A stretch of DNA of 62,039 nt from Draconibacterium orientale (GCA_022729995.1 DZBS01000003.1:1-62039); one strand, 5' to 3'; positions 4,798 through 48,711 are shown, counted from the stretch's first letter. A program made the numbers and translations. The notes: generated by a model not told the origin, from the sequence alone.

Positions 4798-4887
4798 ATG
4801 AAACATCCACGCAAGTTTCACGAAACAAAAGAGATTGATTATTTGGGATGTTCCTTTCTGACCATTAAAAAAAATAAATATAAACAG
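4798..4887 (+). repeat. Start-codon-proximal hairpin element, copy 1
   Basis: ATGAAACATCC...GGATGTTCCTTTCTGACC, A-rich tail, then AAACAG-ATGAAA at the gene start. Confidence 0.85.
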
Positions 4888-6093
4888 ATGAAAATATTAA
4901 TAGTTGACGATATTATTTCAAACATAATTTTACTTGAAGAGATTCTGTCCGGAAATCATCAAACCGAAAAAGCATATAACGGACAAGATGCTCTTGATAA
5001 AATAAATATTTTCAATCCCGACTTGGTTTTGCTCGATATTATGATGCCTGTTATTGACGGAATTGCAACATTAAAAAAAATTAGAGCAAATTTGCTCACA
5101 TCAGATTTGCCTGTTATTATGATAACAGCAAAACAAGAATATGCAGATTTAAAAGAAGCTCTAAATGCAGGTGCTTCCGATTATATTAAAAAACCAATTG
5201 ACAAAACCGAATTATTCACAAAAATTGAAATTCAAAATCAACTGATTCATAAAAGTAAAAAAATTTTAGATTACGAAATTTACGATAATATTCAAGAAAG
5301 TATGGTTGTTGCCCAACGTTTTCAACAATCATTACTTCCCGATAAAAAAAAGCTTTTGAAATTATTTCCAAACAATTTTGTGCTAAATCTTCCTAAAGAT
5401 ATTTTAAGCGGAGATTTTTATAATTTTTATAATTTTGAAAATTCAAGAAAACTAATAACATTATACGATTGTATTGGACACGGTGCTCCGGCGGCAATGA
5501 TGACAATTGCAATTCAACTTATTGCAAATAACCATTTTACATATAATTCTAATTATAATCTGCACGACTCGGTTCAAAAAATAATTGACAATTTAAAAAT
5601 AAATATTAATCAATCTGTCGACACATTTTCCGATTTCAGTTTCGATGCAATATTCTTAGAAATTATTGAAAATGAAATGACTGCAAATTTCATAGGTGCA
5701 CACAGACCGCTATTAATTGTAAGAAAAAATTCTACCGAAATTATTGTTAACAATCAACCGGAAAAGCCGTATATTACACTGCACGACTATTCTTTATTCA
5801 GAATAAAAGGAAATATTCACAGTATAATTCTTGAAAATGCAGATTTTGATAATAAAAAAATAAAACTTGAAAAGGGCGACAGTATATATTTATTTTCCGA
5901 CGGATATACAGAACAAATGTCGAGCAATTTTAAAAAAGTTAGAATTTCAATGAGAGGTCTTGCCGATATTTTAATTGAAAATCAAAATTTATCTATGAAC
6001 GAACAAAAACAAATATTATACGATTACTTTATAAATAATCTTAACGGAAGCAATCAACTTGACGACATTATTGTTATAGGAGTAAAAATATAA
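4888..6093 (+). CDS. Response regulator receiver fused to PP2C/SpoIIE (RsbU-like) phosphatase
   Basis: MKILIVDD...DLVLLDIMMP receiver; SGDFY, DCIGHG, FSDG, DDIIVIG PP2C motifs. Start placed at 4888 because the ORF-track extension from 4798 is the repeat element. Confidence 0.88.
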   Translation: MKILIVDDIISNIILLEEILSGNHQTEKAYNGQDALDKINIFNPDLVLLDIMMPVIDGIATLKKIRANLLTSDLPVIMITAKQEYADLKEALNAGASDYIKKPIDKTELFTKIEIQNQLIHKSKKILDYEIYDNIQESMVVAQRFQQSLLPDKKKLLKLFPNNFVLNLPKDILSGDFYNFYNFENSRKLITLYDCIGHGAPAAMMTIAIQLIANNHFTYNSNYNLHDSVQKIIDNLKININQSVDTFSDFSFDAIFLEIIENEMTANFIGAHRPLLIVRKNSTEIIVNNQPEKPYITLHDYSLFRIKGNIHSIILENADFDNKKIKLEKGDSIYLFSDGYTEQMSSNFKKVRISMRGLADILIENQNLSMNEQKQILYDYFINNLNGSNQLDDIIVIGVKI

Positions 6094-6112
6094 AAAACAA
6101 CGAAATTTTTAT

Positions 6113-6838
6113 ATGTTAATAAAAACCAAAGGCATAGTTTTAAACAGATTAAAATATTCCGACACAGCAATTATTTGTTCAATTTACACTCAAAAATTCG
6201 GGAAATTATCTTTTATGATTCACGGAACAAACTCCAAAAAATCGAAAATTAAAGCAAATCTTCTACAACCAATGTATTTGCTCGATTTAGAAATTATTTA
6301 TAAAGATAATTCAAATTTGCAAAAACTAAATGAAATTTCTTCCGATTACACTTTTACCGACATTCCCCTATCCTTCTCAAAAAATTCTATTCTTTTTTTC
6401 TTGGCCGAATATATAAATAAATGCTTAAAAGAACACGACCAAGATGCTGAACTATTTAATTTTATAAGAAATTCGATGATTTTTTTAGACCAATTAAAAG
6501 TAAACTCTTCTAATTTTCATATTAAATTTTTATTCGATTTTTTTAAATATTTAGGAATTCTCCCCGAAAATAATTTTTCGGATATTCAAAATATTTTCGA
6601 TTTGCAAGCCGGTAAATTTATTTTGGGAAGACCGCAACATAAAGACTTTGCCGATATTGAAACAAGCTTTTATATTTCTGAATTTTTGAAATCCGATTTT
6701 GAAAATATGCACACAATAAATTTATCTAAAACAATGAGAAACAATCTTTTAAATTTTATTATTGATTATTCAAACATTCATATTGAAAAACCGGGATATA
6801 TGAAATCCGTTGACGTTTTGAAAGATATTTTTTCGTAA
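6113..6838 (+). CDS. recO: DNA repair protein RecO
   Basis: KTKGIVL..KYSD..I...YT..FGK N-terminal OB-fold pattern; Bacteroidota RecO-like C-terminus (FDLQAGKF, KSVDVL). Confidence 0.88.
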   Translation: MLIKTKGIVLNRLKYSDTAIICSIYTQKFGKLSFMIHGTNSKKSKIKANLLQPMYLLDLEIIYKDNSNLQKLNEISSDYTFTDIPLSFSKNSILFFLAEYINKCLKEHDQDAELFNFIRNSMIFLDQLKVNSSNFHIKFLFDFFKYLGILPENNFSDIQNIFDLQAGKFILGRPQHKDFADIETSFYISEFLKSDFENMHTINLSKTMRNNLLNFIIDYSNIHIEKPGYMKSVDVLKDIFS

Positions 6839-6842
6839 ATTT

Positions 6843-18792: not shown

Positions 18793-19053
18793 TTTATGAT
18801 ATTTATTTTTTCAGTATAACGAATTATTATTGAATAAATTTGAGATAATTTTACTTACAAAGTAACAAAAATTTAAAAAAAATGAAACAAAAATAAATTT
18901 AACGAAAAATAAATTATTTTTGCAAATTCCAAGCCTACAAATCGTAAGATGTTTTGAACAATAAGCAATGATTATTTTTAGGTTTGACTTTTTTTATAAT
19001 TTTAAACAAAATTCTAATACATTGTAAAAATATTAATTCCCTTTTATAAACAG

Positions 19054-19632
19054 ATGAATCAAATCTTAAAATCAATTATTACAGAAATTAAAAACCAAAA
19101 AGGACTAAGATTTCTTGTAAATATAGCTTTATTAGGAATATTGTTTACATTTTTTTATTATTTCCTTAGAGATTTTAAATTTGTGAACGACATTTATTTG
19201 TGGGGAATCGAACAATTTTCATATTTTCTTCTAACATGTTCAAAATATTTGGTTCAGACATTTGGTTATGAAGCTGTTACTTACGGAAAAACTATAAGAA
19301 TTATCGACGGATTTACAGCTCGCGGAGTTTTTCTCGATCGCGGATGTATGGGGAGAAATGTTTTATTGGCTTATGCCGGACTAATTATTGCTGCTCCCGG
19401 AAATTTTAAAAACAAACTTTGGTTTATTCCAATGGGATTGGCAATTATTACGTTTGTAAATATCATAAGAATAAGCGGTTTGGCTATTACAGCTCATTGT
19501 TGTACTGAATATTTAGATATAAATCATCATTTTGTTTTTAAAATTGCGGCTTGGATTGTAATATTTTTTTTGTGGGTAATTTGGTTTAAAAAATATATGA
19601 ATCCGAAGAAAAAATCTAATATTCAAAAATAA
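19054..19632 (+). CDS. Exosortase/archaeosortase family membrane protein
   Basis: Multiple TM helices with a Cys (RGCMG), Arg (NIIRI), His (NHH) triad arrangement. Confidence 0.78.
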   Translation: MNQILKSIITEIKNQKGLRFLVNIALLGILFTFFYYFLRDFKFVNDIYLWGIEQFSYFLLTCSKYLVQTFGYEAVTYGKTIRIIDGFTARGVFLDRGCMGRNVLLAYAGLIIAAPGNFKNKLWFIPMGLAIITFVNIIRISGLAITAHCCTEYLDINHHFVFKIAAWIVIFFLWVIWFKKYMNPKKKSNIQK

Positions 19633-20413
19633 ATTTATATCCGCTGTATTTTCTAATATTTAAAACATTTCCGTTACTAAAAATAAGATATTGACCTTTT
19701 ATTCCCATTAAATTTCCGGTTATACTTTTTTCCTTGTCCAAATTAAAAGAAATAATTTGTGTGGGATATTTTAAAATCGGATATTTTATTTCAACTATTT
19801 CGCTTTCAGGAATTAAATATTGACTTAAATCCGGCCTCAACAATTCGGAAGCATTATTTTTTTCGGTTTTTAAATTGATATCTAAAACGTTTTCGGTTTT
19901 AAGCATTTTTTGAAAAGCTGTTTTATCCGAAAAATATTGTTTTAAATCTACTTCAATTAATCCGGCTAAATTTCTGTTTGGAGTTTTTGCAATTTTTATT
20001 GCTTTTACGGCACCTTGGTCAATCCAACGAGTTGGAATTTGCGATGCTCGTGTAACTCCGACTTTTAAACCGGAAGTTAAGGATAAATATACGAAATGAT
20101 CTTGCAAACAATTATTTTGTGCCCATTCCATATCGCGAGAAATACCTAAATGTGCTTCACAAAGTTCGGGATTTAAAATACACGGAGCAGTTTCAGGCGA
20201 AATTTGAAAACAATTATAACAAAAGCCTTGAAAAAATGATGTTTTAGTAACTTTTCCGCATTTCACACAATTAATTTCACCGGTCCAACTTATTTTTATT
20301 TCATTTCCCAATAATGAATTCATTTCAATTTTGTTCTCTCCTATCGGCAAAAAATATTCCACAGAGTTGGAAAGAACACTCTTCATTTTTGTAATATTTC
20401 CTAAATATTTCAT
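19616..20413 (-). CDS. DUF2797-like protein
   Basis: CVKCGK...QGFCYNC, KVGVTR..QIPTRWIDQGA, GIKGQYL motifs. Confidence 0.8.
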   Translation of the reverse strand: MKYLGNITKMKSVLSNSVEYFLPIGENKIEMNSLLGNEIKISWTGEINCVKCGKVTKTSFFQGFCYNCFQISPETAPCILNPELCEAHLGISRDMEWAQNNCLQDHFVYLSLTSGLKVGVTRASQIPTRWIDQGAVKAIKIAKTPNRNLAGLIEVDLKQYFSDKTAFQKMLKTENVLDINLKTEKNNASELLRPDLSQYLIPESEIVEIKYPILKYPTQIISFNLDKEKSITGNLMGIKGQYLIFSNGNVLNIRKYSGYKFIFEY

Positions 20414-20505
20414 CTGTATATTTTAAATTGTTTTTTAAAGGTCAGATAGGAATATCCGGAAAAATCAATCTTTTGTATATCGAGAAACTCATACGGATAT
20501 TTCAT
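20414..20505 (-). repeat. Start-codon-proximal hairpin element, copy 2
   Basis: Minus strand: ATGAAATATCCG...CGGATATTCCTATCTGACCTTTAAAAAACAATTTAAAATATACAG, then ATGAAA of the DUF2797-like gene. Confidence 0.88.
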
Positions 20506-20608
20506 GCGTTATATATTTCTTCAAAAATAATTAAAAATATTTGATAAAAAAACAAGCTGTGAATCAAGATGTTAAAAAATATATTACATAGGACATTAAA
20601 ATATTTAC

Positions 20609-20649
20609 TACTTTGTATTGCATAATACCATATTTTATATATATCTTTG
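20609..20649 (+). promoter_or_regulatory. Putative promoter (TTG ... TATCTTTG) with overlapping imperfect palindrome, candidate PadR operator
   Basis: TATCTTTG at 20642-20649; TTG 21 nt upstream; TACTTTGTA-T-TGCATAATA dyad at 20609-20627. Confidence 0.5.
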
Positions 20650-20672
20650 TAAAAACAAATCAAAAATAAATT

Positions 20673-21173
20673 ATGGAAAAAATTAATTCAATTAGGATTA
20701 ACGGTAAAAATTTCAGACTTACCGATTCTGCATATTCACTATTAAAAGAATACGACAGATTTATAAGAAAAAATGTATCGGATTCTCATGTAATTGTTGA
20801 AATTGAAGTTCAAATGTCGGTAATTCTTGAAACCGGAAACCCCAATAATATTAACATTATTCAAATTCGAGATATAGAAGAAGCTATAAATTTGATTGGT
20901 GTAAACGAAAAAATCAATTTTAAAAGAAACTCGAGCAGACCATTTGAGCAAAAAAGAACAAAAGTGAAACGAGAAAAAACAGATGAGTTATTCAGAGATA
21001 AATCCGACAGTGTTTTGGGAGGAGTTTGCTCGGGAATTGCAAACTATTTGGGAATTGACTCTGTAATTGTTAGAGTTGCATTTATAGGATTAACTCTGAT
21101 GACGGGATTTTTCTTTTTGATATATATAATTCTGTGGATTTTTCTGCCCGACCAATCAAGAATACTAAAATAA
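20673..21173 (+). CDS. Short PspC-domain protein
   Basis: C-terminal LFRDKSDSVLGGVCSGIANYLGID...YIILWIFLP PspC motif. Confidence 0.85.
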   Translation: MEKINSIRINGKNFRLTDSAYSLLKEYDRFIRKNVSDSHVIVEIEVQMSVILETGNPNNINIIQIRDIEEAINLIGVNEKINFKRNSSRPFEQKRTKVKREKTDELFRDKSDSVLGGVCSGIANYLGIDSVIVRVAFIGLTLMTGFFFLIYIILWIFLPDQSRILK

Positions 21174-21183
21174 AATTAAACAG

Positions 21184-21274
21184 ATGAAACATCTATGTAT
21201 ATCTCTCGACTCACAACCGAATGATTATTTGAGATGTTCCTATCTGACCTTTAAAAACAATTAAAAAATAACAG
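21184..21274 (+). repeat. Start-codon-proximal hairpin element, copy 3
   Basis: CAG-ATGAAACATCT...AGATGTTCCTATCTGACCTTTAAAAACAATTAAAAAATAACAG-ATGAAA. Confidence 0.88.
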
Positions 21275-21359
21275 ATGAAAAAAAATATCAATATAAAAAG
21301 AATAAAAAAATGTAAAAAAAACGAAAAAAAATCAATATAAAAATTTAAAATTTAATAAT

Positions 21360-21722: not shown

Positions 21723-21749
21723 ATTTTAAAAAATTAATTCTATAAAAAA

Positions 21750-23357: not shown

Positions 23358-23380
23358 AAGTAAAATTAAATCGAAAGTAA

Positions 23381-23422
23381 ATTGAAAGAGAAATCCCGAA
23401 TTGCAGGATTTCTCTTTTCAAT
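23381..23422. terminator. Bidirectional intrinsic terminator between convergent genes
   Basis: GAAAGAGAAATCC-loop-GGATTTCTCTTTTC hairpin. Confidence 0.75.
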
Positions 23423-23444
23423 TTGTTAAAAAATTGAATATCTT

Positions 23445-24556: not shown

Positions 24557-24565
24557 AACTTTTTG

Positions 24566-29630: not shown

Positions 29631-29642
29631 ACCAAATTTACT

Positions 29643-32408: not shown

Positions 32409-32442
32409 TTTGATATTGAATACATCTTATTAAAAAAATAAT

Positions 32443-32450
32443 TAACTTTG
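32443..32450 (+). promoter_or_regulatory. Bacteroidota-type -7 promoter motif (TAACTTTG)
   Basis: TAnnTTTG about 30 bp upstream of the lipoprotein at 32483. Confidence 0.5.
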
Positions 32451-32482
32451 CACATTAACCTTTTGCATAAAATATTAAAATT

Positions 32483-33718
32483 ATGAACCGGAAAAAACAC
32501 ATATCCATAATTCTGTCGTCAATGTTAATTCTTTCAGCATTTGTATTTCAGTCATGCCGTAAGAATTTTGGATTTGACGAATTTTCAAACCTAACAACAG
32601 ACTCGTTAGAATTTGACGGAAGCCTTGCAATACCGATTTTAGACACAAAATTCACACTTGAATCTTTCATTCCCGAAACAGATTCATCTATTTGGGCAGA
32701 AGTTGACGCTCAAAGCCTTATTCATATTAGAATGTATTTTAAAGATGTAATTTCTTTAAGAATGGGTCAAATATATCCAATTACTTCGAGCGGAGCACCT
32801 TCCGGAACTCCAATTCCGGCAGGAGAAACATCAGTTAGAACAGACACTTCGCAACTAAAAGTTTTTTCAAGAATGCTTGAAGGAAAACTTTTTTTTAACG
32901 ACCCAAAAATTACTTTTATAATATCGAACCAAATTCCGGTTGTTACATTTTTTAGATTAGATACTCTAATTTTTCATGATGTTGAAGGGCAATCATTATC
33001 AAATACATCAGACAAAGAATATACAATTTCGGCACCTTCAACATGGGGCGAAGTTTCAACAACAAATATTTTAATAGATAAAAATGAAATACCTGTTTTG
33101 CCCGACGTATTTTCGCCGGTTCCAAAACAAGTTTCTTTTTATATGAGTTTTGGCAGCAACGCATTACAAACATTACCTTTTGACGTAACAGGCGACGAAA
33201 TTTTAAAATTAGATGCAGACTTTGACCTTCCGCTTGATGCTCGGCTTGAAGATTTAGTTATGGGAGATACAATGAATATGGATTTTTCAAAAGGAACATT
33301 TAGCCAAATTACATCTGCTGTTTTAAAAGTTCGTTTCACAAACGGATTTCCTTTGGAAGGAAGAACTCAAATATATTTTGCAGACACGACCGCAACCGGA
33401 GAAATAAACAATATTGTAGATTCTCTTTTTGATGAGCTGAATACTGATGTTTTTGCCGACGGCTGGAGATTTGTTTCGGCAATTACAAACACTTCCGGAG
33501 TTGTTACAGAAACTTCTGTCAGCAATATTTATATTGAAATAACACAAGAAAAATTTCAAAAATTAAAAGATGCCCGAGTTGCAAAAATACTTTTGCTTTC
33601 TAAATTAAATACTTACAACAGCACTTCCGGAACATTTATAAAACTTTTATCTACGTATCAACTTGGTGTTGAGCTTGGAATGAAAGCAAATTACATTATA
33701 ACGGGTGAAGATTTTTAG
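32483..33718 (+). CDS. Hypothetical lipoprotein
   Basis: Signal peptide II (FQSC); beta-rich; NGFPL motif. Confidence 0.7.
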   Translation: MNRKKHISIILSSMLILSAFVFQSCRKNFGFDEFSNLTTDSLEFDGSLAIPILDTKFTLESFIPETDSSIWAEVDAQSLIHIRMYFKDVISLRMGQIYPITSSGAPSGTPIPAGETSVRTDTSQLKVFSRMLEGKLFFNDPKITFIISNQIPVVTFFRLDTLIFHDVEGQSLSNTSDKEYTISAPSTWGEVSTTNILIDKNEIPVLPDVFSPVPKQVSFYMSFGSNALQTLPFDVTGDEILKLDADFDLPLDARLEDLVMGDTMNMDFSKGTFSQITSAVLKVRFTNGFPLEGRTQIYFADTTATGEINNIVDSLFDELNTDVFADGWRFVSAITNTSGVVTETSVSNIYIEITQEKFQKLKDARVAKILLLSKLNTYNSTSGTFIKLLSTYQLGVELGMKANYIITGEDF

Positions 33719-33780
33719 AAAAATATCAGAATAGAAATAAAAAAATATAACTCTTTTGAGCAAAATATAAAATCATACAG

Positions 33781-35253
33781 ATGAAGAATATTATTAAAAT
33801 ATCAATTACAATAATTGCAATCACGAGCATTTTCTCTTTTAATAAAGTGAATGCTCAAAGCAATATTTTATATGGAATGGGAAATATTCCTCAAACAGTA
33901 AACACAAATCCGGCACATCAACCAAATTGCTCATTTTATTTAGGATTTCCGGCACTTTCAAATATATACGCAAATTTGAATAATTCATCGTTAACATTAA
34001 ACACAATATTTGAACCCAAACCAACAGTTCCGGATAGTTTTTTTATTGATATAAATGAAATTGAAAAACAAATAAAACCAATGAATTATTTGAATATTGA
34101 AGAAAATATTTCTTTAATTGATTTTGGTTTCAGAATTGCAAACGGTTTTTATTTTACTTTCACAATAAGCAATAAAACAACCGAAAACTTTGGATTCTCA
34201 AATAGTTTAATAGATTTACCAAAAGGAAATTTCAATGAAGCAGGACTTCCTGTTTCAATAAAATTTTATCAAAACCTCACAAATTACAACGAATATTCTG
34301 CAAGTTTATCAAAACAACTGATGAACAATTTAACAGTAGGCGCAAAAATAAAATTGCTTTCGGGAAATGCAAACTTAAAAGCATCGAAACTAAATTTAGA
34401 TTGGTACACCGAATCTGCTACCGACAGTTTATATGAATGGACTTTTAATACCGATATTGAAGTAAAAGGTTCGGCAATTGTTGATTGGGACATTGATTAT
34501 GTTGACAATAAATATGTATTTACTTACGGCGACATTAAAGATTTAACAGCAGATATTCCGTCTCTTCTATTCAGCCCAAATACAGGATTGGCTTTTGATT
34601 TTGGAGCAGAATATACATTGTTTAACAAATTAAAATTATCGGCAAGTATTATTGATTTAGGATACATAAAATGGCAAACAAATTCAAAAGTTTTAACTCA
34701 AAACGGTTCATTTAAATTTTCGGGAGTTGATTTAGAAAACTATATAACTTCAATTTCCGACATTATGAACGGCGCTAATATTAGTGATCAAATAATTCAA
34801 GATTTAAAAGATTCTGTTCTCACATTTTTAGAACCAACAATTAGTGAAGCTTCATATAAAACATCTTTAAACACAAAAGTATATATTGGAGCAAACTATT
34901 TCTTAACAAAAAAAATTGATGCCGGATTTCTTTTCAGAGGAACAATGCTCAACAGTTCATTATATTCATCATACACATTTTCTGTTAATACAAATTTTGG
35001 AAAAGGTTGGGCTTTTTCAGCAGATTATTCCATTATGTATGGTTTATACAACAACATAGGACTTGGTTTGGCATATAAAATCGGACCACTTCAAATGTAT
35101 ATTTTAACAGATAATATTTCTCCTTTTTTCTGGGCAGTTAACGAAAGTAAATTAACCGATAATTTAATCAGAAATACAAAAGGAACATCAATTCAATTTG
35201 GAATGAATTTCGTTGCATTTAAACAAAAAATTGATTACGGATTAATTGAATAA
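33781..35253 (+). CDS. DUF5723-like outer-membrane beta-barrel protein
   Basis: Signal peptide (AQ), NPA motif, GLAFDFGAEY, SASIIDLGYIKW, amphipathic strands. Confidence 0.7.
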   Translation: MKNIIKISITIIAITSIFSFNKVNAQSNILYGMGNIPQTVNTNPAHQPNCSFYLGFPALSNIYANLNNSSLTLNTIFEPKPTVPDSFFIDINEIEKQIKPMNYLNIEENISLIDFGFRIANGFYFTFTISNKTTENFGFSNSLIDLPKGNFNEAGLPVSIKFYQNLTNYNEYSASLSKQLMNNLTVGAKIKLLSGNANLKASKLNLDWYTESATDSLYEWTFNTDIEVKGSAIVDWDIDYVDNKYVFTYGDIKDLTADIPSLLFSPNTGLAFDFGAEYTLFNKLKLSASIIDLGYIKWQTNSKVLTQNGSFKFSGVDLENYITSISDIMNGANISDQIIQDLKDSVLTFLEPTISEASYKTSLNTKVYIGANYFLTKKIDAGFLFRGTMLNSSLYSSYTFSVNTNFGKGWAFSADYSIMYGLYNNIGLGLAYKIGPLQMYILTDNISPFFWAVNESKLTDNLIRNTKGTSIQFGMNFVAFKQKIDYGLIE

Positions 35254-35289
35254 TTTTAATTGACCTTTTATTAACAAATCTAATAATTT

Positions 35290-35378
35290 ATGAAACATCC
35301 ATGTAAGACTCACGAAACACAGAAGAATGATTATTCAGGATGTTCCTATGTAACCTTAAAAATTTAAAATATCAACAC
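35290..35378 (+). repeat. Start-codon-proximal hairpin element, copy 4
   Basis: ATGAAACATCC...GGATGTTCCTATGTAACC, tail, AACAC-ATGAAA at the lipoprotein start. Confidence 0.85.
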
Positions 35379-36167
35379 ATGAAAACAAAAAGTAAAATTT
35401 CAGTAATGATTCTTTCGCTTGCAATAATGATTTTTTCATTTTCATGCGAAAAACCCGCACAACCCGACAGTCAATCGGCCGAAGACGACGCAAAAGGCTC
35501 ATTGGTTGTTTCCGATGCATTTGCATTTTCTAACACAGCAGCAAACAGCGACGGAAAATCTATTCAAACAGATGATTGCTTCATAATTGCTTTTACAGGA
35601 ATTTTCCCTGAAAGAGTTATGACTTTAACATTTGACAATTGCATTACAAACGGAATAACAAGAAACGGACAAATTGTAGTTACATTAGGTTCTGTTTGGA
35701 ATGTAGGAAGCACAATGACAATTACTTTTAATCAATACACAGTAAACGGTATTTCGGTTGAAGGAACAGTTGTTGCTGATTATAGTTTAGTAACTTTAAT
35801 TCCGACATTTACGCTCTCCGAACAAAAAATGAAACTTACATTTACCGACGGAAAAACTTCAACTTGGGATTCTGAAAGAGTTTTTACAATGAATTCTGGT
35901 GCTTTAACTCCATTAATAAGAATAGACGATATTTTCTTAATTAACGGAACAAAATCCGGCGTTAACAGATACGGAGAAGAATATTCGTCGGAATATATTG
36001 AGGTTGAATCCGATAAAAGTTGCGATTGGCCAAAAAAAGGAATTGTTAAAGTTTCAAAAACCGGCGATGACCCAACTGTAATAGATTTTGATCAAGACGG
36101 AAACGCTGCTTGCGATAACATTATAAAAGTATCAAAGAACGGATTTGAATTTACGATTTCTTTATAA
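35379..36167 (+). CDS. Hypothetical lipoprotein (paralog of 36796-37575)
   Basis: MKTKSK...FSFSC lipobox; start reassigned to 35379. Confidence 0.8.
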   Translation: MKTKSKISVMILSLAIMIFSFSCEKPAQPDSQSAEDDAKGSLVVSDAFAFSNTAANSDGKSIQTDDCFIIAFTGIFPERVMTLTFDNCITNGITRNGQIVVTLGSVWNVGSTMTITFNQYTVNGISVEGTVVADYSLVTLIPTFTLSEQKMKLTFTDGKTSTWDSERVFTMNSGALTPLIRIDDIFLINGTKSGVNRYGEEYSSEYIEVESDKSCDWPKKGIVKVSKTGDDPTVIDFDQDGNAACDNIIKVSKNGFEFTISL

Positions 36168-36192
36168 TATAACATTTAAAAACATTTAAAAA

Positions 36193-36516
36193 ATGGCTAT
36201 ATTTAATATTTTCAAACTGCCGGAAAATAAAAGGTTTGAATATAAGCCAATTTATTTTGATAAACGAAAAGAAGAATTAGCAAAAAAAATTTCAGATGCA
36301 CAAAAATTAAAAGAAATTAAAGAACATAACTTTTATAAAACTGAAATTAAAGGCAAATTTAAAAGCGAATTCCAAAAAAATTCTTTATTAAGGCAGAACA
36401 GGAATTCAAATATCAGAATAGGAATTATTATAATGTTTTTAGGTTTAATATTATATTATGTTAAGATAAATAACGATTTAATTTCGAGAATGATAGAAAT
36501 ATTATACTCAAAATAA
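36193..36516 (+). CDS. Small hypothetical membrane protein
   Basis: FKLP..KRFEYKPIY N-terminus, basic middle, C-terminal TM helix after SNIR. Confidence 0.7.
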   Translation: MAIFNIFKLPENKRFEYKPIYFDKRKEELAKKISDAQKLKEIKEHNFYKTEIKGKFKSEFQKNSLLRQNRNSNIRIGIIIMFLGLILYYVKINNDLISRMIEILYSK

Positions 36517-36520
36517 TAAA

Positions 36521-36603
36521 AAGAAACTTTCGTGAAATAGCATAAAAAACTATTTTACGAAAGTTCAATGTTTTAAACTATTAAAACTTTTAAAATAGAA
36601 CAA
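36521..36603 (+). repeat. Hairpin element, degenerate copy 5 (first unit of the tandem run)
   Basis: GAAACTTTCGTGAAATAG-loop-CTATTTTACGAAAGTTC, tail ending TAAAATAGAACAA-ATGAAA. Confidence 0.7.
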
Positions 36604-36795
36604 ATGAAACTTTCTAATACGAAAAACAATGAATTATTTAAAACATAATTTCTTTAGAAAGTTCATATTTGACCTTTAAAAACAATTAAAATAGAACAAA
36701 TGAAACTTTCAAATATGAAAAACAATGAATTATTTAAAACATAATTTCTTTAGAAAGTTCCTATTTGACCTTTAAAAACAATTAAAATAGAACAA
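36604..36795 (+). repeat. Two tandem 96-bp hairpin elements (copies 6 and 7)
   Basis: Units 36604-36699 and 36700-36795 differ at 3 of 96 positions; the next ATGAAA (36796) starts the gene. Confidence 0.95.
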
Positions 36796-37575
36796 ATGAA
36801 AAAATCAACTTATTATCTGCCTGTTTTAATCGGATTACTAATTTTTACAACATTTACTTCTTGCAATAAAGACGAAGAAATTGATGCTCAAGCAGTGGAA
36901 GACAATGCAAAAGGTTCATTAGTTGTTTCAGATGCATTTGCATTTTCAAACAGTACTGCATCAGGAAAAAAATTAGCAGGCACCGAATGTTACACAACCG
37001 TAACTATCGACAACGGATTTGAACTCACATTTGACTCATGTATTTATGACGGTATTTTACGCAACGGTAAAATTATTCTTACATTATCACAAGATTGGTC
37101 GGAAGGCTCGCTTATGTCTATTGAATTCCAAGATTTTGTTTTCGACGGAAATAGAATCGACGGTAAAATTACTGCAGGATATAGAATTGATATCACCAGA
37201 TTAGATATTCTAAACGGTATTTATTTTGAAATTAAAGCCATAGACATGGTTATGGATTTTAACGACGGAACAAGTTTTTCGTGGAACTCTACAATGAATT
37301 TCGGACTTAGAATTGACGGTGTTTTACCTGTTTTTGAATATTACGGTTTTTCTTACGGAACAAACAGATTGGGCGAAGAATTTGAAACAAACTCAGAAGC
37401 AGTTCTTTTCGACAGAGCTTGCGTGTGGCCTTCTTCAGGAACTTTTACAATGAAAGTGGGAAACAAGGAAACAGTTGTTGATTTTGACGAAGACGGAACC
37501 GGAATTTGTAATAATGTAATTAAAGTTACATGTGGCGATAACACGTTGAATTTAACTTTAGAACCAAATAATTAG
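36796..37575 (+). CDS. Hypothetical lipoprotein (paralog of 35379-36167)
   Basis: FTSC lipobox followed by NKDEE; shares ED.AKGSLVVSDAFAFSN and a Cys pattern with the upstream paralog. Confidence 0.8.
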   Translation: MKKSTYYLPVLIGLLIFTTFTSCNKDEEIDAQAVEDNAKGSLVVSDAFAFSNSTASGKKLAGTECYTTVTIDNGFELTFDSCIYDGILRNGKIILTLSQDWSEGSLMSIEFQDFVFDGNRIDGKITAGYRIDITRLDILNGIYFEIKAIDMVMDFNDGTSFSWNSTMNFGLRIDGVLPVFEYYGFSYGTNRLGEEFETNSEAVLFDRACVWPSSGTFTMKVGNKETVVDFDEDGTGICNNVIKVTCGDNTLNLTLEPNN

Positions 37576-37596
37576 TTTAAATATCACAAAATCAAT

Positions 37597-37639
37597 AAAA
37601 AGGAAGAAATCTTGTTTAACAGGATTTCTTCTTTTTTTT
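37597..37639. terminator. Bidirectional intrinsic terminator
   Basis: GAAGAAATCTTGTT-T-AACAGGATTTCTTC flanked by A-run and T-run, between convergent genes. Confidence 0.78.
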
Positions 37640-37652
37640 ATTACCTAAAAAA

Positions 37653-38372
37653 CTAAACCGATTTTTTATTTTTAAAAGAAAACTTATACCCTACTCCTTT
37701 CACGGTTTTAATAAATTTTTCATCGGTTTTTTCTCTAATTTTTCTGATATGAACATCAATAGTTCTATCGCCCACAATTACATCATTTCCCCAAACTTTG
37801 CTATAAATTTCATCTCTCGAAAATATTTTTTCGGGAAATGAAGCAAGCATAAATAAAAGATTAAACTCTTTTTTGGGTAAAACTATTTCATTTCCGTTAT
37901 AAACAACAATATGATTTTCTTTATCAATTATAAGATTCTCAAATTCAATAATACTTTTAACTTCAGAATTTGAATTAACTTTTTTTAATCTTTTTAATAA
38001 AGCATTAATCTTTTTCACAAAAACTTTAGGGCTTATTGGTTTTGCAATAAAATCATCGGCTCCGGCATCGAAACCCGCAATTTGCGAATAATCTTCGGAG
38101 CGTGCGGTAAGAAAAATAATGGAAGTACTTTCGAGAACAGGAATTTGACGAATAATATTACATGTTTCAATTCCGTCCATTTCGGGCATCATAATATCCA
38201 AAACAATTAAATCGGGTAATATTTTTTGAGCTGTTTTTATTGCATCTTTTCCGGACGATTCTGAAAAAACATTGTAACCTTCCTTTTTTAAATTATAAGT
38301 TAAAAATTCAATTATATCGGTTTCGTCGTCAACCAATAAAATTTTAATTTGAGATTTAGTTTCTCTTTCCAT
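37653..38372 (-). CDS. OmpR/PhoB family response regulator (PhoB/PhoP-like)
   Basis: LLVDDE, LDIMMP, FLTARSE, wHTH RTIDVHIRKIREK...TVKGVGY. Confidence 0.93.
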   Translation of the reverse strand: MERETKSQIKILLVDDETDIIEFLTYNLKKEGYNVFSESSGKDAIKTAQKILPDLIVLDIMMPEMDGIETCNIIRQIPVLESTSIIFLTARSEDYSQIAGFDAGADDFIAKPISPKVFVKKINALLKRLKKVNSNSEVKSIIEFENLIIDKENHIVVYNGNEIVLPKKEFNLLFMLASFPEKIFSRDEIYSKVWGNDVIVGDRTIDVHIRKIREKTDEKFIKTVKGVGYKFSFKNKKSV

Positions 38373-38373
38373 T

Positions 38374-39303
38374 TTAAGCTTTTTTTAATGAAAAAGTAAA
38401 AACAGTGCCAATTTTTAGTTCACTGTCAACAAAAATTTTTTCTTGATGTGCTTCAATAATATGTTTAACAATTGATAATCCCAATCCTGTTCCTCCGGAT
38501 TTTTGTGAACGACTTTTGTCTACTCTGTAAAAACGTTCAAAAATTCTGGGCAAATCGTCTTTTGCAATACCAATTCCGTTGTCGGCAACATCAATTAATG
38601 CTTTATTATTAATATCTCTAATTCTAACTTTTGTAATTCCGTTTTGTTTTCCGTATCGAATAGAATTTGTCAGCAAATTAACCAAAATTTGAGTTATTTT
38701 TTCTCTGTCGGCAACAACATTTAATATTATTTTATCTTTAATCAAAACAAAATCTATAAATTTTTCTTGAGATTTTAAATGTAACATTTCAAAAACTTCG
38801 TTAACAAGTTCAATAATATCAAATGTTTCAAGATTTAAGTTTAAAATTCCGGATTCAATTTTTGAAATCATATCTAAATCTTCCACAATTGTAATCATTC
38901 TATTTATGTTTTTCTCGGCTCTTTCAAGATAATTTATATTAATTTCGGGGTCGTTAATTCCGCCGTCCAAAAGGGTTAAAACATAACCTTGAATATTAAA
39001 AATAGGTGTTTTAAGTTCGTGTGACACATTGCCAATAAATTCCTTTCTGTATTTTTCGTTAGCTTTCAAATTTTCAATTTCCGAATTTTTTTGTTTAAAA
39101 GAAAATTTCCTAAACTTTAAATAAAACTCTATAATGAATGGTAATATCAATGAAATAGAAACAAAATTTACAATTAATATTCCATATAAATCTAATGAAA
39201 AATATTCGGGTAAATTATCATTAATATAATTTTCAACAATAACAACTGTCATTGCAATTAATGAAACAATTAACGATAATGCAAGTTTTGAATTGAAACT
39301 CAT
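38374..39303 (-). CDS. PhoR-like sensor histidine kinase
   Basis: RKEFIGNVSHELKTP, FERFYRVDKSRS..GGTGLGL; start is ATG 39303 or TTG 39315. Confidence 0.92.
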   Translation of the reverse strand: MSFNSKLALSLIVSLIAMTVVIVENYINDNLPEYFSLDLYGILIVNFVSISLILPFIIEFYLKFRKFSFKQKNSEIENLKANEKYRKEFIGNVSHELKTPIFNIQGYVLTLLDGGINDPEININYLERAEKNINRMITIVEDLDMISKIESGILNLNLETFDIIELVNEVFEMLHLKSQEKFIDFVLIKDKIILNVVADREKITQILVNLLTNSIRYGKQNGITKVRIRDINNKALIDVADNGIGIAKDDLPRIFERFYRVDKSRSQKSGGTGLGLSIVKHIIEAHQEKIFVDSELKIGTVFTFSLKKA

Positions 39304-46680: not shown

Positions 46681-46703
46681 GGATAAAAAATAATTTTTAT
46701 AAA

Positions 46704-47270
46704 TTATTTTACTCTTTCGTTGTATGCTCTGTCTCTGGTATCGACTTTAATTTTGTCGCCAATATTAACAAATAACGGAACTTTAATTTCGGCACCTGTT
46801 TCAAGTTTTGCAGGTTTGAGTACGTTTGAAGATGCAGTGTCGCCTTTTAAGCCGGGTTCGGTATATTCAACAACTAATTCTACAAATGCGGGCAAATCGC
46901 AGGATAGTGCGGTATTTGTATCTGCATGAAAAACGATTTCAACATTTTGTCCGTCTTTCATTAAATCGTTGTTAAAAACCATTTGCGGATTTAGTATAAC
47001 TTGCTCAAAAGTTTCGTTGTGCATGAATGTATATCCCATTTCGTCTTTATACAAAAATTGATAAGGATGTCTCTCTATTCTTGCTTCAACAACTTTTTCT
47101 CCTGCCGTGAATGTATTTTCTTTTGTTCTTCCGGATTTTAAGCTTAAAAGTTTTGTTCTGACAAAAGCAGCTCCTCTACCCTTTTTGGAGTGTTGGAAAG
47201 AGATAATTGTGTATAATTCTCCTTCAAATTCTATAGTTAATCCGTTTCTAAAATCGCCTGTTGTAATCAT
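46704..47270 (-). CDS. efp: Translation elongation factor P (Arg32 type)
   Basis: AFVRTK, YTEPGLKGDT, KPAKLETG, VPLFV..GD.IKVDTR. Confidence 0.97.
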   Translation of the reverse strand: MITTGDFRNGLTIEFEGELYTIISFQHSKKGRGAAFVRTKLLSLKSGRTKENTFTAGEKVVEARIERHPYQFLYKDEMGYTFMHNETFEQVILNPQMVFNNDLMKDGQNVEIVFHADTNTALSCDLPAFVELVVEYTEPGLKGDTASSNVLKPAKLETGAEIKVPLFVNIGDKIKVDTRDRAYNERVK

Positions 47271-47345
47271 TATTATATATTTTATTTTTGCCTGCGAAGA
47301 TAATAAATTTTCCGAAAAAAATCATTTCAATTAATAATGTTATAA

Positions 47346-48596
47346 CTATATATCTTTCCTTAATCTAAAAGAAGTTTTGTATTCTACACCGCCTCTCAAA
47401 AACACAATTGAAATTTTCTTTCCTTGCCTTAATCTCATAAATGAATTAATTTCAATTACGGAATAATTAAATGTGCTTTCACCGTTAATTTTTATAATAT
47501 TATCGCCGAATCTTAATCCGGCCAAATCTGCGGGTGAATTTTTTAAAATATATGAAACTCTATAAATTGGAAATGTTCCGAAAATAGATTGAACCTCCAT
47601 TCCGCCCATATTAAAATTGAATTCATCTTTAAAATTTTTATTTTTGGTGAGTGTAATTTTTTTGTTTGGGTAATCGAATATTATATCAAACCTTCGTAAC
47701 ATTTCGGCACCAATACTTCCGTTTCTTCCGATAATATCGAGTTCAAAAGAATTTAATATTGAAGTTGAATCGGGAAATGAAGTAGAAACATTACAAAGTG
47801 AATGTTTGCCGATATTTACTTGTTTTGTTCTTGCCTGAAATCCAAAAATTTTTCCGCTCAAACCTTTTCCCAAAAATGTATATCTTTTGTTTTGAGGAAT
47901 AATTATTTCATCATTTGTTTCTTCAAAAAGCCAAAGTGCATCGCCGGAGCCTGTATCGATTAACAGTTTAACTTTTAACAAACTGTCTTTTTCATTCTTA
48001 ATATTCAAATTAATATAAGGTTTTGATTTAGATATTTCTAAATCCATTTCCTGCGAATTTCTATTTTTGCGAGGATATTTGAATTTTTGCGGGTCGAAAA
48101 AAGTTAAAGTATTATTTGAATAATTAATTTTAACAATAAAGTTTTCAAAAATATCAGCACCTATTAAACCGTGTATATTCATTCCTAATTCTCCGGAAAG
48201 ATTAAATTTATCATCGGTTATTATGTAAAAATTATAATTATTGCATACAATTCCGTTCATTCTTATTTTATTACCGTAAGACAAAAACACATCTAAATTT
48301 CCTTCAATACCCAATCCTTTTATTGTGTATTTTTGTGCAAGTTTCAACATCGACGAATCTTTTTTTGGCAAATTTGTAATTAGCGAAGTTTTTAATCCTG
48401 TATCTAAAATAAAATTCAAAGTATCGGATTGGTTAATAATAACCGGAATAATTATAAGATTATTTACCAATTTGAAATTGAAAGTAGATTTTGATTTTTT
48501 TTCATTTTCAAATTTTAAAATATTAGCTTGTGCATTTGTAATAAAAGGAGATATTATTATCGAAATTAATAGTAATATATTATAAATCGTTTTCAT
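47346..48596 (-). CDS. Secreted aspartyl protease with PDZ domain
   Basis: Signal peptide; two DTG motifs (FILDTG, LLIDTG); C-terminal SPADLAGL..GD.I..ING. Confidence 0.88.
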   Translation of the reverse strand: MKTIYNILLLISIIISPFITNAQANILKFENEKKSKSTFNFKLVNNLIIIPVIINQSDTLNFILDTGLKTSLITNLPKKDSSMLKLAQKYTIKGLGIEGNLDVFLSYGNKIRMNGIVCNNYNFYIITDDKFNLSGELGMNIHGLIGADIFENFIVKINYSNNTLTFFDPQKFKYPRKNRNSQEMDLEISKSKPYINLNIKNEKDSLLKVKLLIDTGSGDALWLFEETNDEIIIPQNKRYTFLGKGLSGKIFGFQARTKQVNIGKHSLCNVSTSFPDSTSILNSFELDIIGRNGSIGAEMLRRFDIIFDYPNKKITLTKNKNFKDEFNFNMGGMEVQSIFGTFPIYRVSYILKNSPADLAGLRFGDNIIKINGESTFNYSVIEINSFMRLRQGKKISIVFLRGGVEYKTSFRLRKDI

Positions 48597-48711
48597 GTGT
48601 TTATTTTTAAAATGTTTTTAAAAGTCGGAACTTATTCCGATTTTTTTTCGTGATAGAAACATCATAAATAACAATTTTCTATAATGTTTTAAATAATTAA
48701 GAATATTTCAT
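48597..48711 (-). repeat. Hairpin element, diverged copy 8 with internal insertion
   Basis: Minus strand: ATGAAATATT...GATGTTTCTATC, insert with TCGGAA-TAAG-TTCCGA, then CTTTTAAAAACATTTTAAAAATAAACAC-ATGAAA. Confidence 0.68.

What the first reader, a model, noticed from the sequence alone, without database searches (positions are those of the whole stretch)
4798..48711. Dispersed ~90-bp structured element fused to start codons, about 8 copies with covarying stems
Seen: copies at 4798-4887(+), 20414-20505(-), 21184-21274(+), 35290-35378(+), 36521-36603, 36604-36699, 36700-36795(+) and 48597-48711(-). Layout: left arm (CAG)ATGAAACATCC, a variable ~35-45 nt loop, right arm GGATGTTCCTATCTG, tail ACCTTTAAAAACAATTAAAA..AACAG, then ATGAAA. 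The arms covary: AACATCC/GGATGTT, AACATCT/AGATGTT, AATATCCG/CGGATATT, AACTTTCT/AGAAAGTT, and outer CAGAT/ATCTG vs CAAAT/ATTTG. Pairing is therefore conserved while the loop drifts. Every copy ends exactly at ATGAAA, and the five annotated genes it precedes are mostly unrelated yet all start Met-Lys. Inference: either a non-autonomous mobile element that targets and duplicates ATGAAA and supplies an A-rich translation-initiation region, or a cis-regulatory RNA family. I do not recognise it as a described family. No mobilising enzyme is in the window.
Basis: partly seen in the sequence, partly recalled or inferred. Interest (0 to 1): 0.9.

Follow-up and report, generated by a model that had tools for sequence, protein, structure and literature searches.

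The report
Mobile repeat that lands on start codons
A roughly 90-base hairpin-forming DNA repeat, present about a hundred times in this bacterium and in many related ones, sits exactly in front of gene start codons and carries its own ribosome landing pad, which looks like a mobile element that homes to the first codon of genes.

Summary
The genome (3.25 Mb, probably Bacteroidota) holds 106 copies at 94 loci. In 76 of the 94 loci the ATG just after the element opens an ORF of at least 100 codons.

Anatomy: ATGAAAC, hairpin P1, GTTCC(T)AT-NN-GACC, an A-rich tail of about 25 nt, C-N'N', then the gene's ATG(AAA). Two helices covary: P1, and P2 (CAT-NN-G with C-N'N'-ATG, which includes the start codon).

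The family matched in 42 of 150 sampled genomes of the same order. It is homogeneous within a genome and different between genomes, mostly at non-orthologous genes. The nearest relative has three syntenic empty sites, and in one the native leader runs right up to the element.

The upstream reading frame is not conserved. I found no Rfam match and no description in six literature searches.

Best reading: a non-autonomous element that inserts precisely 5' of ATGAAA-type start codons and brings a replacement translation-initiation region. I could not identify the mobilising enzyme: IS110, TnpB and reverse transcriptase are missing from most copy-rich genomes, and the Y1 transposase is inconsistent. 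Whether the helices act in DNA or in RNA is unresolved.

The parts
4798..4887 (+). Copy 1. It is in frame with the downstream gene and has no stop. The gene ATG at 4888 starts a response regulator-SpoIIE phosphatase of 401 aa.
   Evidence: P1 is 4802-4808 with 4846-4852. P2 is 4856-4860 with 4885-4889.
20414..20505 (-). Copy 2 (arms AATATCCG/CGGATATT). The gene ATG at 20413 starts a DUF2797 protein of 265 aa.
   Evidence: Contigs of two other metagenomes bridge this copy.
21184..21274 (+). Copy 3. The following ATG at 21275 opens only 21 codons. A PadR gene starts at 21360.
21188..21238 (+). P1 hairpin of copy 3: AACATCT (21188-21194) pairs with AGATGTT (21232-21238). The loop holds the conserved ACACA..ATGATTAT motif.
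21242..21276 (+). P2 of copy 3: ATCTG (21242-21246) pairs with CAGAT (21272-21276), enclosing the A-rich tail. The last two paired bases are the AT of the start codon.
35290..35378 (+). Copy 4, of the CAC/GTA sub-family. The gene ATG is at 35379 (262 aa, no Pfam family).
   Evidence: The syntenic site in G001 has no element.
36521..36603 (+). Copy 5, the degenerate first member of a tandem triple. It starts AAGAAAC and has a shortened loop.
36604..36699 (+). Copy 6, tandem (arms AACTTTCT/AGAAAGTT, with CAA/TTG at P2).
36700..36795 (+). Copy 7, tandem. The gene ATG is at 36796 (259 aa).
   Evidence: G001 has only 15 nt between the two syntenic genes.
48597..48711 (-). Copy 8, with a nested hairpin insertion of about 21 nt (CACGAAAAAAAATCGG type) inside the left strand of P2. 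The gene ATG at 48596 starts an Asp-protease/PDZ protein of 416 aa.

Best explanation
This is a non-autonomous, site-specific mobile DNA element of about 90 nt (up to about 170 nt in relatives). It integrates exactly between a gene's native leader and its start codon, strongly preferring ATG-AAA.

The element is ATGAAAC - P1 hairpin - GTTCC(T)AT-NN-GACC - A-rich tail - C-N'N'.

Shown:
- The native leader stays upstream, now in front of the element's own ATGAAAC.
- The gene's ATG is now preceded by the element's A-rich tail, which has the look of a Shine-Dalgarno-less Bacteroidota initiation region.

Predicted by RNA folding:
- P1 buries the upstream pseudo-start, while the real start stays as open as that of an ordinary gene. 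The insertion would therefore be close to harmless.

Inferred:
- The stretch GTTCCAT-NN-G acts as a splint. It can pair with the element's 5' end (ATGAAAC) and its 3' end (C-N'N') together, as they would lie in a circular or tandem junction.
- It can equally pair with the 3' end plus a target ATGAAA. That would explain both the NN:N'N' covariation and the choice of target.
- Mobilisation happens in trans, on single-stranded or hairpin DNA, by an enzyme I could not identify.
For: Copy number and placement:
- 106 copies at 94 loci (84 single, 8 double, 2 triple). In 76 loci the next ATG opens at least 100 codons, in 2 it opens 60-99, in 9 fewer than 60, 6 run off a contig or into N, and 1 has no ATG.
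- 68 of 78 assessable copies followed by ATGAAA are at long ORFs, against a null of 0.376 (p about 1e-19) or 0.20.
- The gene start after the element is ATGAAA in 82 of 93 terminal copies, against 596 of 2483 genes overall.

Left junction:
- 5' flanks show the same A peak at -13 to -11 as native leaders.
- For pepD, the G001 native leader aligns with the G000 5' flank to within about 3 nt of the junction (score 52; shuffles 30.2 +/- 4.6; 0 of 500 reach it). It does not align with the element's interior (46 of 500).
- Two further syntenic empty sites exist in G001.

Mobility:
- Matches in 6 of 30 relatives, with none in the same-genus genome.
- Matches in 42 of 150 genomes of the order, each from a different family.
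- Matches in 2 of 150 in a phylum-wide sample.
- Near-identical copies within a genome and different P1 sequences between genomes.
- Of 18 G000 homologues of genes that carry the element elsewhere, only 1 also carries it.
- Some tandem arrays are built from different sub-families.

Structure:
- In G000, on a MAFFT alignment not fitted to any model, P1 is Watson-Crick in 651 of 700 cells and P2 in 441 of 493.
- 97.3% of cells are paired over 19 copies from 7 genomes, with 7 of 12 pairs changed on both sides and 0 of 500 shuffles reaching the observed value.
- 97.8% are paired over 60 copies from 6 genomes, with 107 doubly changed cells; slid controls give 26-39%.
- P2 pairs seen include CT/AG, GT/AC, AC/GT, CA/TG, CC/GG, AT/AT and TT/AA.
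- There are few wobble pairs: 14 G.T and 6 A.C in 1171 cells.

RNA folding: the window around the 5' ATG has unpaired probability 0.38 against 0.52 for controls (p 2e-9). The real start has 0.53 against 0.52.

The peptide from the upstream ATG is not conserved: it runs 2 to 38 codons.
Against: - I saw no autonomous copy, circle, excision footprint or insertion polymorphism. Contigs of the same species from four other metagenomes either bridge a copy or break inside one, and none skips a copy.
- No candidate enzyme tracks the element. Among five copy-rich genomes, IS110 is in 1, TnpB in 0 and reverse transcriptase in 2. Y1 transposase is in 111 of 151 genomes of the order but is missing from the copy-rich G054 and from G049 and G053. 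The single Y1 gene of G000 is flanked by a different repeat.
- ATGAAA alone does not explain the restriction to true start codons. Selection, or some further target feature, has to be assumed. My null depends on a crude ORF-based gene call.
- The wobble counts do not say which strand or which molecule folds. In G000 there are 27 G.T against 40 A.C, of which 21 A.C are one inherited state.
- Two of the five measures were reached by many shuffles (132 of 500 and 26 of 500). Alignments A3 and A5-A7 were fitted to the model.
- The empty sites come from a relative with only 53-78% protein identity. Loss of the element there, rather than gain in G000, cannot be formally excluded.
Confidence: 0.6

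Rival explanations
1. The element is, or has become, a cis-acting mRNA leader. P1 hides the duplicated start codon. P2 (CAT-NN-G with C-N'N'-AUG) gates the real start codon, so that many unrelated genes share one form of translational control, for example by temperature, an RNA-binding protein or a small RNA. On this reading the covariation is kept by selection on RNA. Mobility only explains how the leader spread.
For: - The element is always in the sense orientation and abuts the start codon.
- P2 contains the whole ATG in most genomes.
- RNA folding predicts an occluded upstream ATG (0.38 against 0.52) and a somewhat less open real ATG triplet (0.34 against 0.41, p 0.08).
- Loop motifs (ACACA, ATGATTAT) and GACC are conserved in sequence across the order.
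- Published work says initiation in this phylum is tuned by mRNA structure and upstream bases (PMC6847099; I saw only the start of the abstract in the listing).
- 35 of 90 loci lie within 60 nt of a co-directional upstream gene, so these copies are probably transcribed within operons.
Against: - Positions are mostly non-orthologous between genomes (1 of 18).
- The genes served are functionally unrelated.
- Wobble pairs are very rare (about 1% of cells) and many changes are transversions such as C:G to G:C. That is unusual for RNA helices.
- Private mutations are no rarer in the helices than in the tail. This is a crude measure.
- P2 is only 5-6 bp around a 25-nt loop and was not in the minimum-free-energy fold.
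- There is no Rfam match.
Confidence: 0.25
2. It is a derivative of an IS200/IS605-type or REP/RAYT-type element. It would be moved as single-stranded DNA by the Y1 (HUH) transposases that are common in this order. GTTCCAT-NN-G would play the part of the guide that recognises the cleavage sites and the target.
For: - The element has a sub-terminal hairpin plus an internal stretch complementary to both ends and to the target. This resembles the guide principle of IS608, which I recall from memory and did not check here.
- Y1 genes are in 111 of 151 genomes of the order, and in most of the 43 element-positive genomes.
- An element lies within 1.5 kb of 3 of 14 Y1 loci examined, and one sits exactly on a Y1 start codon in G075.
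- REP-like CCCG..CGGG hairpins are nested inside about 10 G000 copies.
Against: - G054 has at least 24 copies and no Y1 match at 94% completeness. G049 and G053 also lack one.
- The Y1 genes carry their own, different REP-like hairpins (GTCCCGTAGGGAC).
- The element has one hairpin, not two. The guide lies 3' of the hairpin and pairs as an ordinary antiparallel helix.
- The G075 case looks like an ordinary start-codon insertion.
- TnpB was found in 0 of 5 copy-rich genomes.
Confidence: 0.2
3. It is a translated upstream ORF or leader peptide (consensus MKHPCISLDTQPNDYLGCSYLTFKNN) that regulates the downstream gene by coupling or attenuation.
For: Every intact copy begins with an ATG in the native initiation context. 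The consensus frame ends 13 nt before the gene's ATG (read from the consensus).
Against: - The frame length varies from 2 to 38 codons within G000 and between genomes. Many copies stop after 4-5 codons.
- The covarying changes alter the encoded residues on both arms.
Confidence: 0.02
4. It is not mobile. On this reading it is an ancient conserved leader of a regulon, or an attC-like recombination site of gene cassettes.
For: It is widespread in the order and always next to a gene start.
Against: - The genes are non-orthologous.
- Empty sites show conserved synteny.
- Copies are homogeneous within a genome.
- There are no cassette arrays. The loci are ordinary housekeeping neighbourhoods.
- There is no GTTRRRY/RYYYAAC core. 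That consensus is recalled from memory.
Confidence: 0.03

Closest known systems
MITEs of bacteria, such as Correia/NEMIS elements of Neisseria and the P. gingivalis MITEs (PMC4596501 and the census PMC11602168; I saw the listing and some passages only)
   Same: Short, non-coding, high-copy and intergenic, with inverted repeats. Copies are homogeneous within a genome and the distribution across genomes is patchy.
   Different: - The right inverted repeat is sub-terminal, about 30 nt from the 3' end.
- The flanking direct repeat has a fixed sequence (ATG(AAA)), not a variable target duplication.
- I found no cognate IS with matching ends.
- The orientation and the position relative to start codons are fixed.
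IS200/IS605-derived palindrome-associated elements and guide-based single-strand transposition (IS608; recalled from memory. PMC6006769 was seen in a listing only)
   Same: A hairpin, plus an internal sequence complementary to the element's ends and to the target. Insertion is next to a short specific sequence. A circular junction would be expected.
   Different: There is a single hairpin. The guide lies 3' of the hairpin and forms a canonical antiparallel helix. Y1 presence does not track the element, and no TnpB was found.
REP/REPIN elements with RAYT transposases (PMC3733652, listing only)
   Same: Dispersed palindromic repeats, probably moved in trans by a single-copy enzyme.
   Different: REPs are 20-40 nt, carry a GTAG or CGTC tag and usually lie after genes. 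This element is about 90 nt, has an A-rich tail and lies before genes. The genome's own Y1 gene is flanked by a different hairpin.
Rickettsia palindromic elements (recalled from memory)
   Same: Palindromic repeats tolerated at positions that touch coding sequence. One window copy (4798) is in frame with its gene.
   Different: RPEs sit inside ORFs and are translated. This family sits before the ORF and usually has stop codons in its tail.
Start-codon- or RBS-sequestering mRNA leaders, such as RNA thermometers (recalled from memory)
   Same: A helix that includes the start codon and encloses the initiation region.
   Different: Such leaders are single, orthologous and gene-specific. This one is a repeat family at unrelated, non-orthologous genes, with almost no wobble pairs.

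Membership tests
Any Rfam 15 family | A covariance-model match at or near the gathering score | tested here: not met
   No match at gathering score in the whole window. Over 20380-21320, which holds two copies, there were only three chance-level hits with E of 2.5 or more.
MITE | Terminal inverted repeats at both extreme ends | tested here: not met
   The inverted repeat (ATGAAAC+P1 left with P1 right+GTTCCAT) is terminal on the left. On the right it ends about 30 nt before the element's 3' end.
MITE | A target-site duplication of fixed length and variable sequence | tested here: not met
   The flanking repeat is always ATG(AAA): 82 of 93 ATGAAA, the rest ATGAAT, ATGAAC and others. This looks like a recombination core or a recognised target, not a staggered-cut duplication.
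MITE | A parent IS with the same ends encoding a transposase | tested here: not met
   No left and right arms lie more than 80 nt apart around an ORF in G000. Only this one genome was scanned in this way.
IS200/IS605-derived element | Co-occurrence with a Y1 (HUH) transposase | tested here: inconclusive
   Y1 is in 111 of 151 genomes of the order and in most element carriers. It is absent from G054 (at least 24 copies), G049 and G053. The carriers are draft genomes.
IS200/IS605-derived element | Sub-terminal hairpins at both ends, with a guide 5' of each hairpin | tested here: not met
   There is one hairpin, and the complementary stretch lies 3' of it.
REP/REPIN-RAYT | A 20-40 nt palindrome with a GTAG/CGTC tag, flanking a RAYT gene | tested here: not met
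   The Y1 genes are flanked by GTCCCGTAGGGAC-type hairpins that are unlike P1.
IS110/IS1111 (bridge-RNA) derivative | A DEDD transposase in genomes with active copies | tested here: not met
   PF01548 was found in 1 of 5 copy-rich genomes.
Retroelement | A reverse transcriptase in genomes with active copies | tested here: not met
   PF00078 was found in 2 of 5 copy-rich genomes. It is absent from G058, which has near-identical copies.
Cis-regulatory leader or riboswitch | Conserved at orthologous genes, with RNA-type covariation that includes G.U pairs | tested here: not met
   1 of 18 homologues share the element. G.T pairs make up 14 of 1171 cells.
Leader peptide / uORF | A conserved reading frame and peptide | tested here: not met
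   Frame lengths run from 2 to 38 codons.
Integron attC | R''/L''-L'/R' boxes with a GTTRRRY core, in cassette arrays beside an integrase | not tested
   The core consensus is recalled, not searched. By eye GTTCCAT does not fit RRR, and the loci are not cassette arrays.

The most novel reading that the evidence does not exclude
This is a new class of self-guided mobile element. A built-in splint (GTTCCAT-NN-G) base-pairs with the element's own two ends and with the start codon of a target gene. The element therefore homes to translation start sites and replaces the gene's initiation region. Its specificity could be reprogrammed by changing a few bases, and it is moved by an enzyme, or a host function, that has not yet been linked to transposition.
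Probability: 0.3. Interest if true: 0.9.

Novelty: new variant of a known kind. Interest (0 to 1): 0.8.

Why it matters
- If the reading holds, this repeat family rewires the 5' end of about one gene in thirty in some genomes. In G000 it occupies 94 loci among roughly 2,500 long ORFs.
- It would be the first bacterial mobile element I know of whose target is the start codon itself.
- It also bears on genome annotation. The element's own ATGAAAC sits in the native initiation context, so gene callers may choose the wrong start or call spurious small ORFs. Window ORF 4798..6093 is an example.
- It gives a natural experiment on Shine-Dalgarno-less translation initiation in Bacteroidota, because about 100 unrelated genes run on one imported leader.
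- The complementarity between the internal stretch and the start codon suggests a simple base-pairing rule for target choice. That rule can be tested at the bench.

Tried and rejected
- **Rfam.** No match at gathering score or in permissive mode.
- **Literature.** Six searches aimed at the element found no description, and one further search was for background. The Bacteroidota MITE census PMC11602168 has 0 occurrences of 'start codon' and 0 of 'upstream'.
- **The search for related loci** with the DUF2797 protein in genome contigs and metagenome contigs returned only relatives at 43-44% identity.
- **RNA evidence.** No RNA holder was listed.
- **Read laying on 19000-38500 with four other metagenomes**. 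Contigs bridge the 20414-20505 copy and break inside the 21184, 35290 and 36521-36795 copies. No joint skips a copy. These are contigs, so a rare variant could have been dropped.
- **Search for a long, autonomous version in G000** by unpaired arms: none found.
- **Search of G075 for one copy's arm sequences**. That P1 sequence is unique to one copy. This led me to fetch more copies.
- **Private-mutation test for purifying selection**. The measure is biased in variable columns, so I give it little weight.
- **MAFFT alignments of empty against filled sites** were confounded by AT-rich sequence. I replaced them with a local alignment with shuffles.
- **Two of the three genus searches for further empty sites failed.** One G001 orthologue is cut by a contig end. 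The other was not found.
- **The promoter idea.** By eye I saw no TAnnTTTG motif (recalled consensus) inside the element. No tool was run for this.
- **Hammerhead or other small ribozyme.** No Rfam hit.

Full report
**What is in the window.** All eight copies lie at the coordinates given, and nhmmer finds exactly these eight in contig C30.

Each copy reads as follows:
- ATGAAAC;
- a left arm (AACATCC or a variant);
- a loop of 35-45 nt;
- a right arm (GGATGTT);
- CCTAT-NN-G/A-ACC;
- an A-rich tail of about 25 nt;
- C-N'N';
- the ATGAAA of the next ORF.

Two copies depart from this. The copy at 36521 is degenerate (AAGAAAC, short loop). The copy at 48597-48711 carries a nested hairpin of about 21 nt.

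The ORFs that follow are unrelated: a response regulator-SpoIIE phosphatase, a DUF2797 protein, two proteins with no Pfam family, and an Asp-protease/PDZ protein. After the 21184 copy comes only a 21-codon ORF, with a PadR gene 85 nt further on.

**Census in the genome.**
- The assembly has 3.25 Mb in 172 contigs at 30% G+C. It has 34 Por_Secre_tail matches above the cut-off, and none of the 14 control genomes has any. A type IX secretion signal points to Bacteroidota. That link is my own knowledge.
- An HMM built from the eight copies finds 115 hits at E up to 10 and 106 at E<1e-3. They form 94 loci: 84 single, 8 double and 2 triple. Several arrays contain assembly gaps, so the count is a lower bound.
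- The ATG after the last copy opens at least 100 codons at 76 loci, 60-99 at 2 and fewer than 60 at 9. Six run off a contig or into N, and one has no ATG.
- For comparison, 1458 of 7184 ATGAAA sites in the genome (20%) open at least 100 codons.
- In a crude ORF-based gene set, 596 ATGAAA sites are gene starts, 1089 are intergenic and 5576 lie inside ORFs.
- Among terminal copies followed by ATGAAA that could be assessed, 68 of 78 are at long ORFs. This gives p about 1e-19 against a null of 0.376. The null is rough, because short genes count as intergenic.
- The hexamer after the element is ATGAAA in 82 of 93 terminal copies. The rest are ATGAAT (5), ATGAAC (2), GTGAAA (2), ATGAGA (1) and ATGAAG (1). 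Only 24% of genes start ATGAAA.

**Not a peptide.** The frame opened by the element's own ATG runs for 2 to 38 codons in different copies, and once straight into the gene. In other genomes it often stops after 4 codons. The covarying arm changes also alter the encoded residues.

**Two covarying helices.**

In G000, on a MAFFT alignment of 100 copies that was not fitted to any model:
- P1 is Watson-Crick in 651 of 700 cells.
- P2 (ATCTG with the CAGAT that ends in the start codon) is Watson-Crick in 441 of 493 cells.
- The central P2 pair is C:G in 61 copies, G:C in 23, T:A in 5 and something else in 10 of 99.
- The same arm paired against the 5' flank is complementary at that position in only 26 of 99. 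The partner therefore lies inside the element, at its 3' end.

Across genomes:
- 19 copies from 7 genomes: 97.3% of cells paired, 7 of 12 pairs changed on both sides, 0 of 500 shuffles reaching the observed value, slid controls 30-40%.
- 60 copies from 6 further genomes: 97.8% paired and 107 doubly changed cells, with 0 of 500 shuffles for three measures. Two measures were reached more often: the number of pairs with a double change (132 of 500) and the number of pair types (26 of 500).
- These alignments were fitted to the model, which favours the structure. The G000 result above does not have that bias.

In most genomes the right arm reads GTTCCAT, so P2 is CAT-NN-G with C-N'N'-ATG. That is six pairs and includes the whole start codon. 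The NN pairs seen are CT/AG, GT/AC, AC/GT, CA/TG, CC/GG, AT/AT and TT/AA. In G075, almost identical copies differ only by compensated changes at this pair.

The same CAT can instead pair with the element's own 5' ATG (ATGAAAC with GTTCCAT, one A.C mismatch).

Wobble pairs are scarce: 14 G.T and 6 A.C in 1171 cells order-wide. In G000 there are 27 G.T and 40 A.C, of which 21 A.C are one inherited state. The counts do not point to a strand. The near absence of G.U-type pairs and the frequent transversions fit DNA pairing better than a typical RNA helix. That last point is inference.

**Distribution.**
- A broader model matched 42 of 150 genomes sampled from the order, each from a different family, at E up to 1e-4. 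Only 25 candidates per genome were scored, so copy numbers are capped.
- In a phylum-wide sample at E up to 1e-6, it matched 2 of 150. One is from the same order. The other, from a different order of the class, is a clear copy in front of a lipoprotein-like gene.
- Of 38 copies from 33 genomes, 31 precede ORFs of at least 100 codons, 1 an ORF of 60-99 codons and 5 shorter ones, and 1 runs off a contig.

**Evidence for mobility.**
- Copies are nearly identical within a genome (14 in G058) and have different P1 sequences between genomes. Some genomes hold several sub-families.
- I took 31 genes that carry the element in other genomes. Eighteen have a G000 homologue at E up to 1e-10, and only one of those also carries an element (C157, shared with G015 of the same family).
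- G001 is the closest genome held, at 53-78% protein identity. It keeps the synteny around window copies 35290 and 36521-36795 but has no element. There are 78 nt and 15 nt between the respective genes, and both orthologues start ATGAAA.
- For pepD, the G001 leader aligns with the G000 sequence 5' of the element almost up to the junction (score 52; shuffles 30.2 +/- 4.6; 0 of 500 reach it). It does not align with the 70 nt before the real ATG (46 of 500). The shared leader holds TATATTTG, which fits the recalled Bacteroidota -7 promoter motif. In this pair the gene starts ATGAAC in G001 and ATGAAT in G000, so the shared core is at most ATGAA.
- 5' flanks of first copies have the same A-rich profile, in the same register, as leaders of ordinary ATGAAA genes.
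- Several tandem arrays join different sub-families (C6, C89, C133 and the window triple). In three of these four the upstream copy is the degenerate one (read). This fits repeated insertion at the gene's ATG.
- Elements follow co-directional genes at 73 of 90 loci, against 352 of 496 for controls. The spacer distributions are similar, so the element shows no tie to promoters.

**What I could not show.**
- Contigs of the same species from four other metagenomes bridge or break in the copies. None skips one.
- No RNA data are listed.
- No long version with an ORF exists in G000.
- Enzymes, in five copy-rich genomes: IS110 in 1, TnpB in 0 and reverse transcriptase in 2.
- Y1 transposase genes are common (111 of 151) but absent from G054, G049 and G053. 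In G000 the single Y1 gene is flanked by three copies of a different palindromic repeat found nowhere else in the genome.
- An element lies within 1.5 kb of 3 of 14 Y1 loci, and once exactly on the Y1 start codon. This is a lead, not an association I can defend.

**How it most likely works.**

Shown:
- The element sits between the native leader and the ATG.
- It carries an A-rich tail next to the real start.
- P1 and P2 are maintained by compensated changes.

Predicted:
- As RNA, the upstream ATG window is occluded (unpaired probability 0.38 against 0.52 in 150 control genes, p 2e-9).
- The real start is as open as a normal one (0.53 against 0.52), and its upstream 20 nt are more open (0.65 against 0.54).
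- In a phylum that initiates without Shine-Dalgarno pairing, with initiation tuned by structure and upstream bases (PMC6847099; I saw only the start of the abstract), this would make the insertion nearly neutral.

Inferred:
- GTTCCAT-NN-G is a splint that holds the element's 3' end (C-N'N') next to either its own 5' end (a circular or tandem junction) or a target ATGAAA.
- This accounts for the covariation, the fixed flanking ATG(AAA) and the target preference.
- Restriction to true start codons then needs either selection against other sites or a further target feature, such as the A-rich leader.

**Comparison and novelty.**
- It behaves like a MITE or REP-type non-autonomous element, and its internal complementarity recalls the guide principle of IS200/IS605. 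It fails the defining features of each family that I could test (see the membership table).
- It matches no Rfam 15 family, and I found no description in six searches. A bulk MITE census of Bacteroidota may list it anonymously in supplements that I could not open.
- I rate it a new variant of a known kind (a non-autonomous mobile repeat). It has an unusual and well-supported property, start-codon homing with an imported initiation region, and an open mechanism.

Noticed in passing
G000 contig C49:2350-3281 (locus L031 about 1078-2009): The single Y1 (IS200-like, NF033573) transposase gene of 152 aa is flanked by three copies of a palindromic repeat of about 125 nt with GTCCCGTAGGGAC and CCGTCCCGACAGGACGG hairpins. 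The repeat occurs nowhere else in the genome. Y1 genes in G075 have similar REP-like hairpins.
   Followed up: partly
window 48597-48711 and about 9 other G000 copies (for example C68:295-418, C44:28859-28987): A sub-family carries a nested hairpin of about 21 nt (CCCGAAAAATCGGGACAAGTT type) inserted between CCTAT and CTG, splitting the left strand of P2. It resembles the REP-like hairpins next to the Y1 genes. The NN:N'N' match is kept in 5 of the 9 copies I inspected by eye.
   Followed up: partly
window 4798-6093: Copy 1 is exactly 90 nt long, in frame and without a stop. An ORF finder therefore extends the response-regulator gene by 30 codons from the element's ATG. This is a likely source of wrong start-codon annotation.
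   Followed up: partly
window 21275-21340: The ATG after copy 3 opens only a lysine-rich 21-codon frame (MKKNINIKRIKKCKKNEKKSI). The PadR gene starts 85 nt later. It could be a decayed gene start, a small ORF, or an element at a start that has since been lost.
   Followed up: no
G000, for example C126(-), C113(-), C121(+), C96(-), C104(-), C55(+), C89(-), C61(-), as listed: About ten genes without a detectable element are still preceded by the last 10-14 nt of the element's tail (AAAAATAAACAC or ..CAG directly before ATGAAA). CAG or CAC before ATGAAA is also over-represented: 42 of 530 ATGAAA genes have it, and neither trinucleotide is among the 12 commonest for all genes. These may be remnants of old copies.
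   Followed up: partly
G000 C157:66876-66976 and G015 locus L041:379-522: This is the only case found where orthologous genes (53% identity) in two genera both carry the element, each with its own genome's P1 sequence. It is either an old insertion homogenised with the local family or two independent hits.
   Followed up: no
L164:1852-1953(-) (G075 C4): An element sits exactly on the start codon of a Y1 transposase gene, between that gene and its upstream REP-like hairpin. A second copy lies about 300 nt downstream of another Y1 gene (L155:2139-2239).
   Followed up: partly
loci L077, L078, L079, L082, L097, L101, L136, L139: A sub-family found in several genomes has AAACGA(A)G opposite CGA(A)GTT in P1. 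This gives tandem G.A/A.G mismatches in the middle of the helix, and they are conserved rather than repaired.
   Followed up: no
G000 C149:21359-21563, C156:3071-3275, C133:19586-19784, C36:31675-31817, C35:about 17140: Runs of N (assembly gaps) lie inside tandem arrays of the element. Array lengths and the total copy number are therefore underestimated.
   Followed up: no
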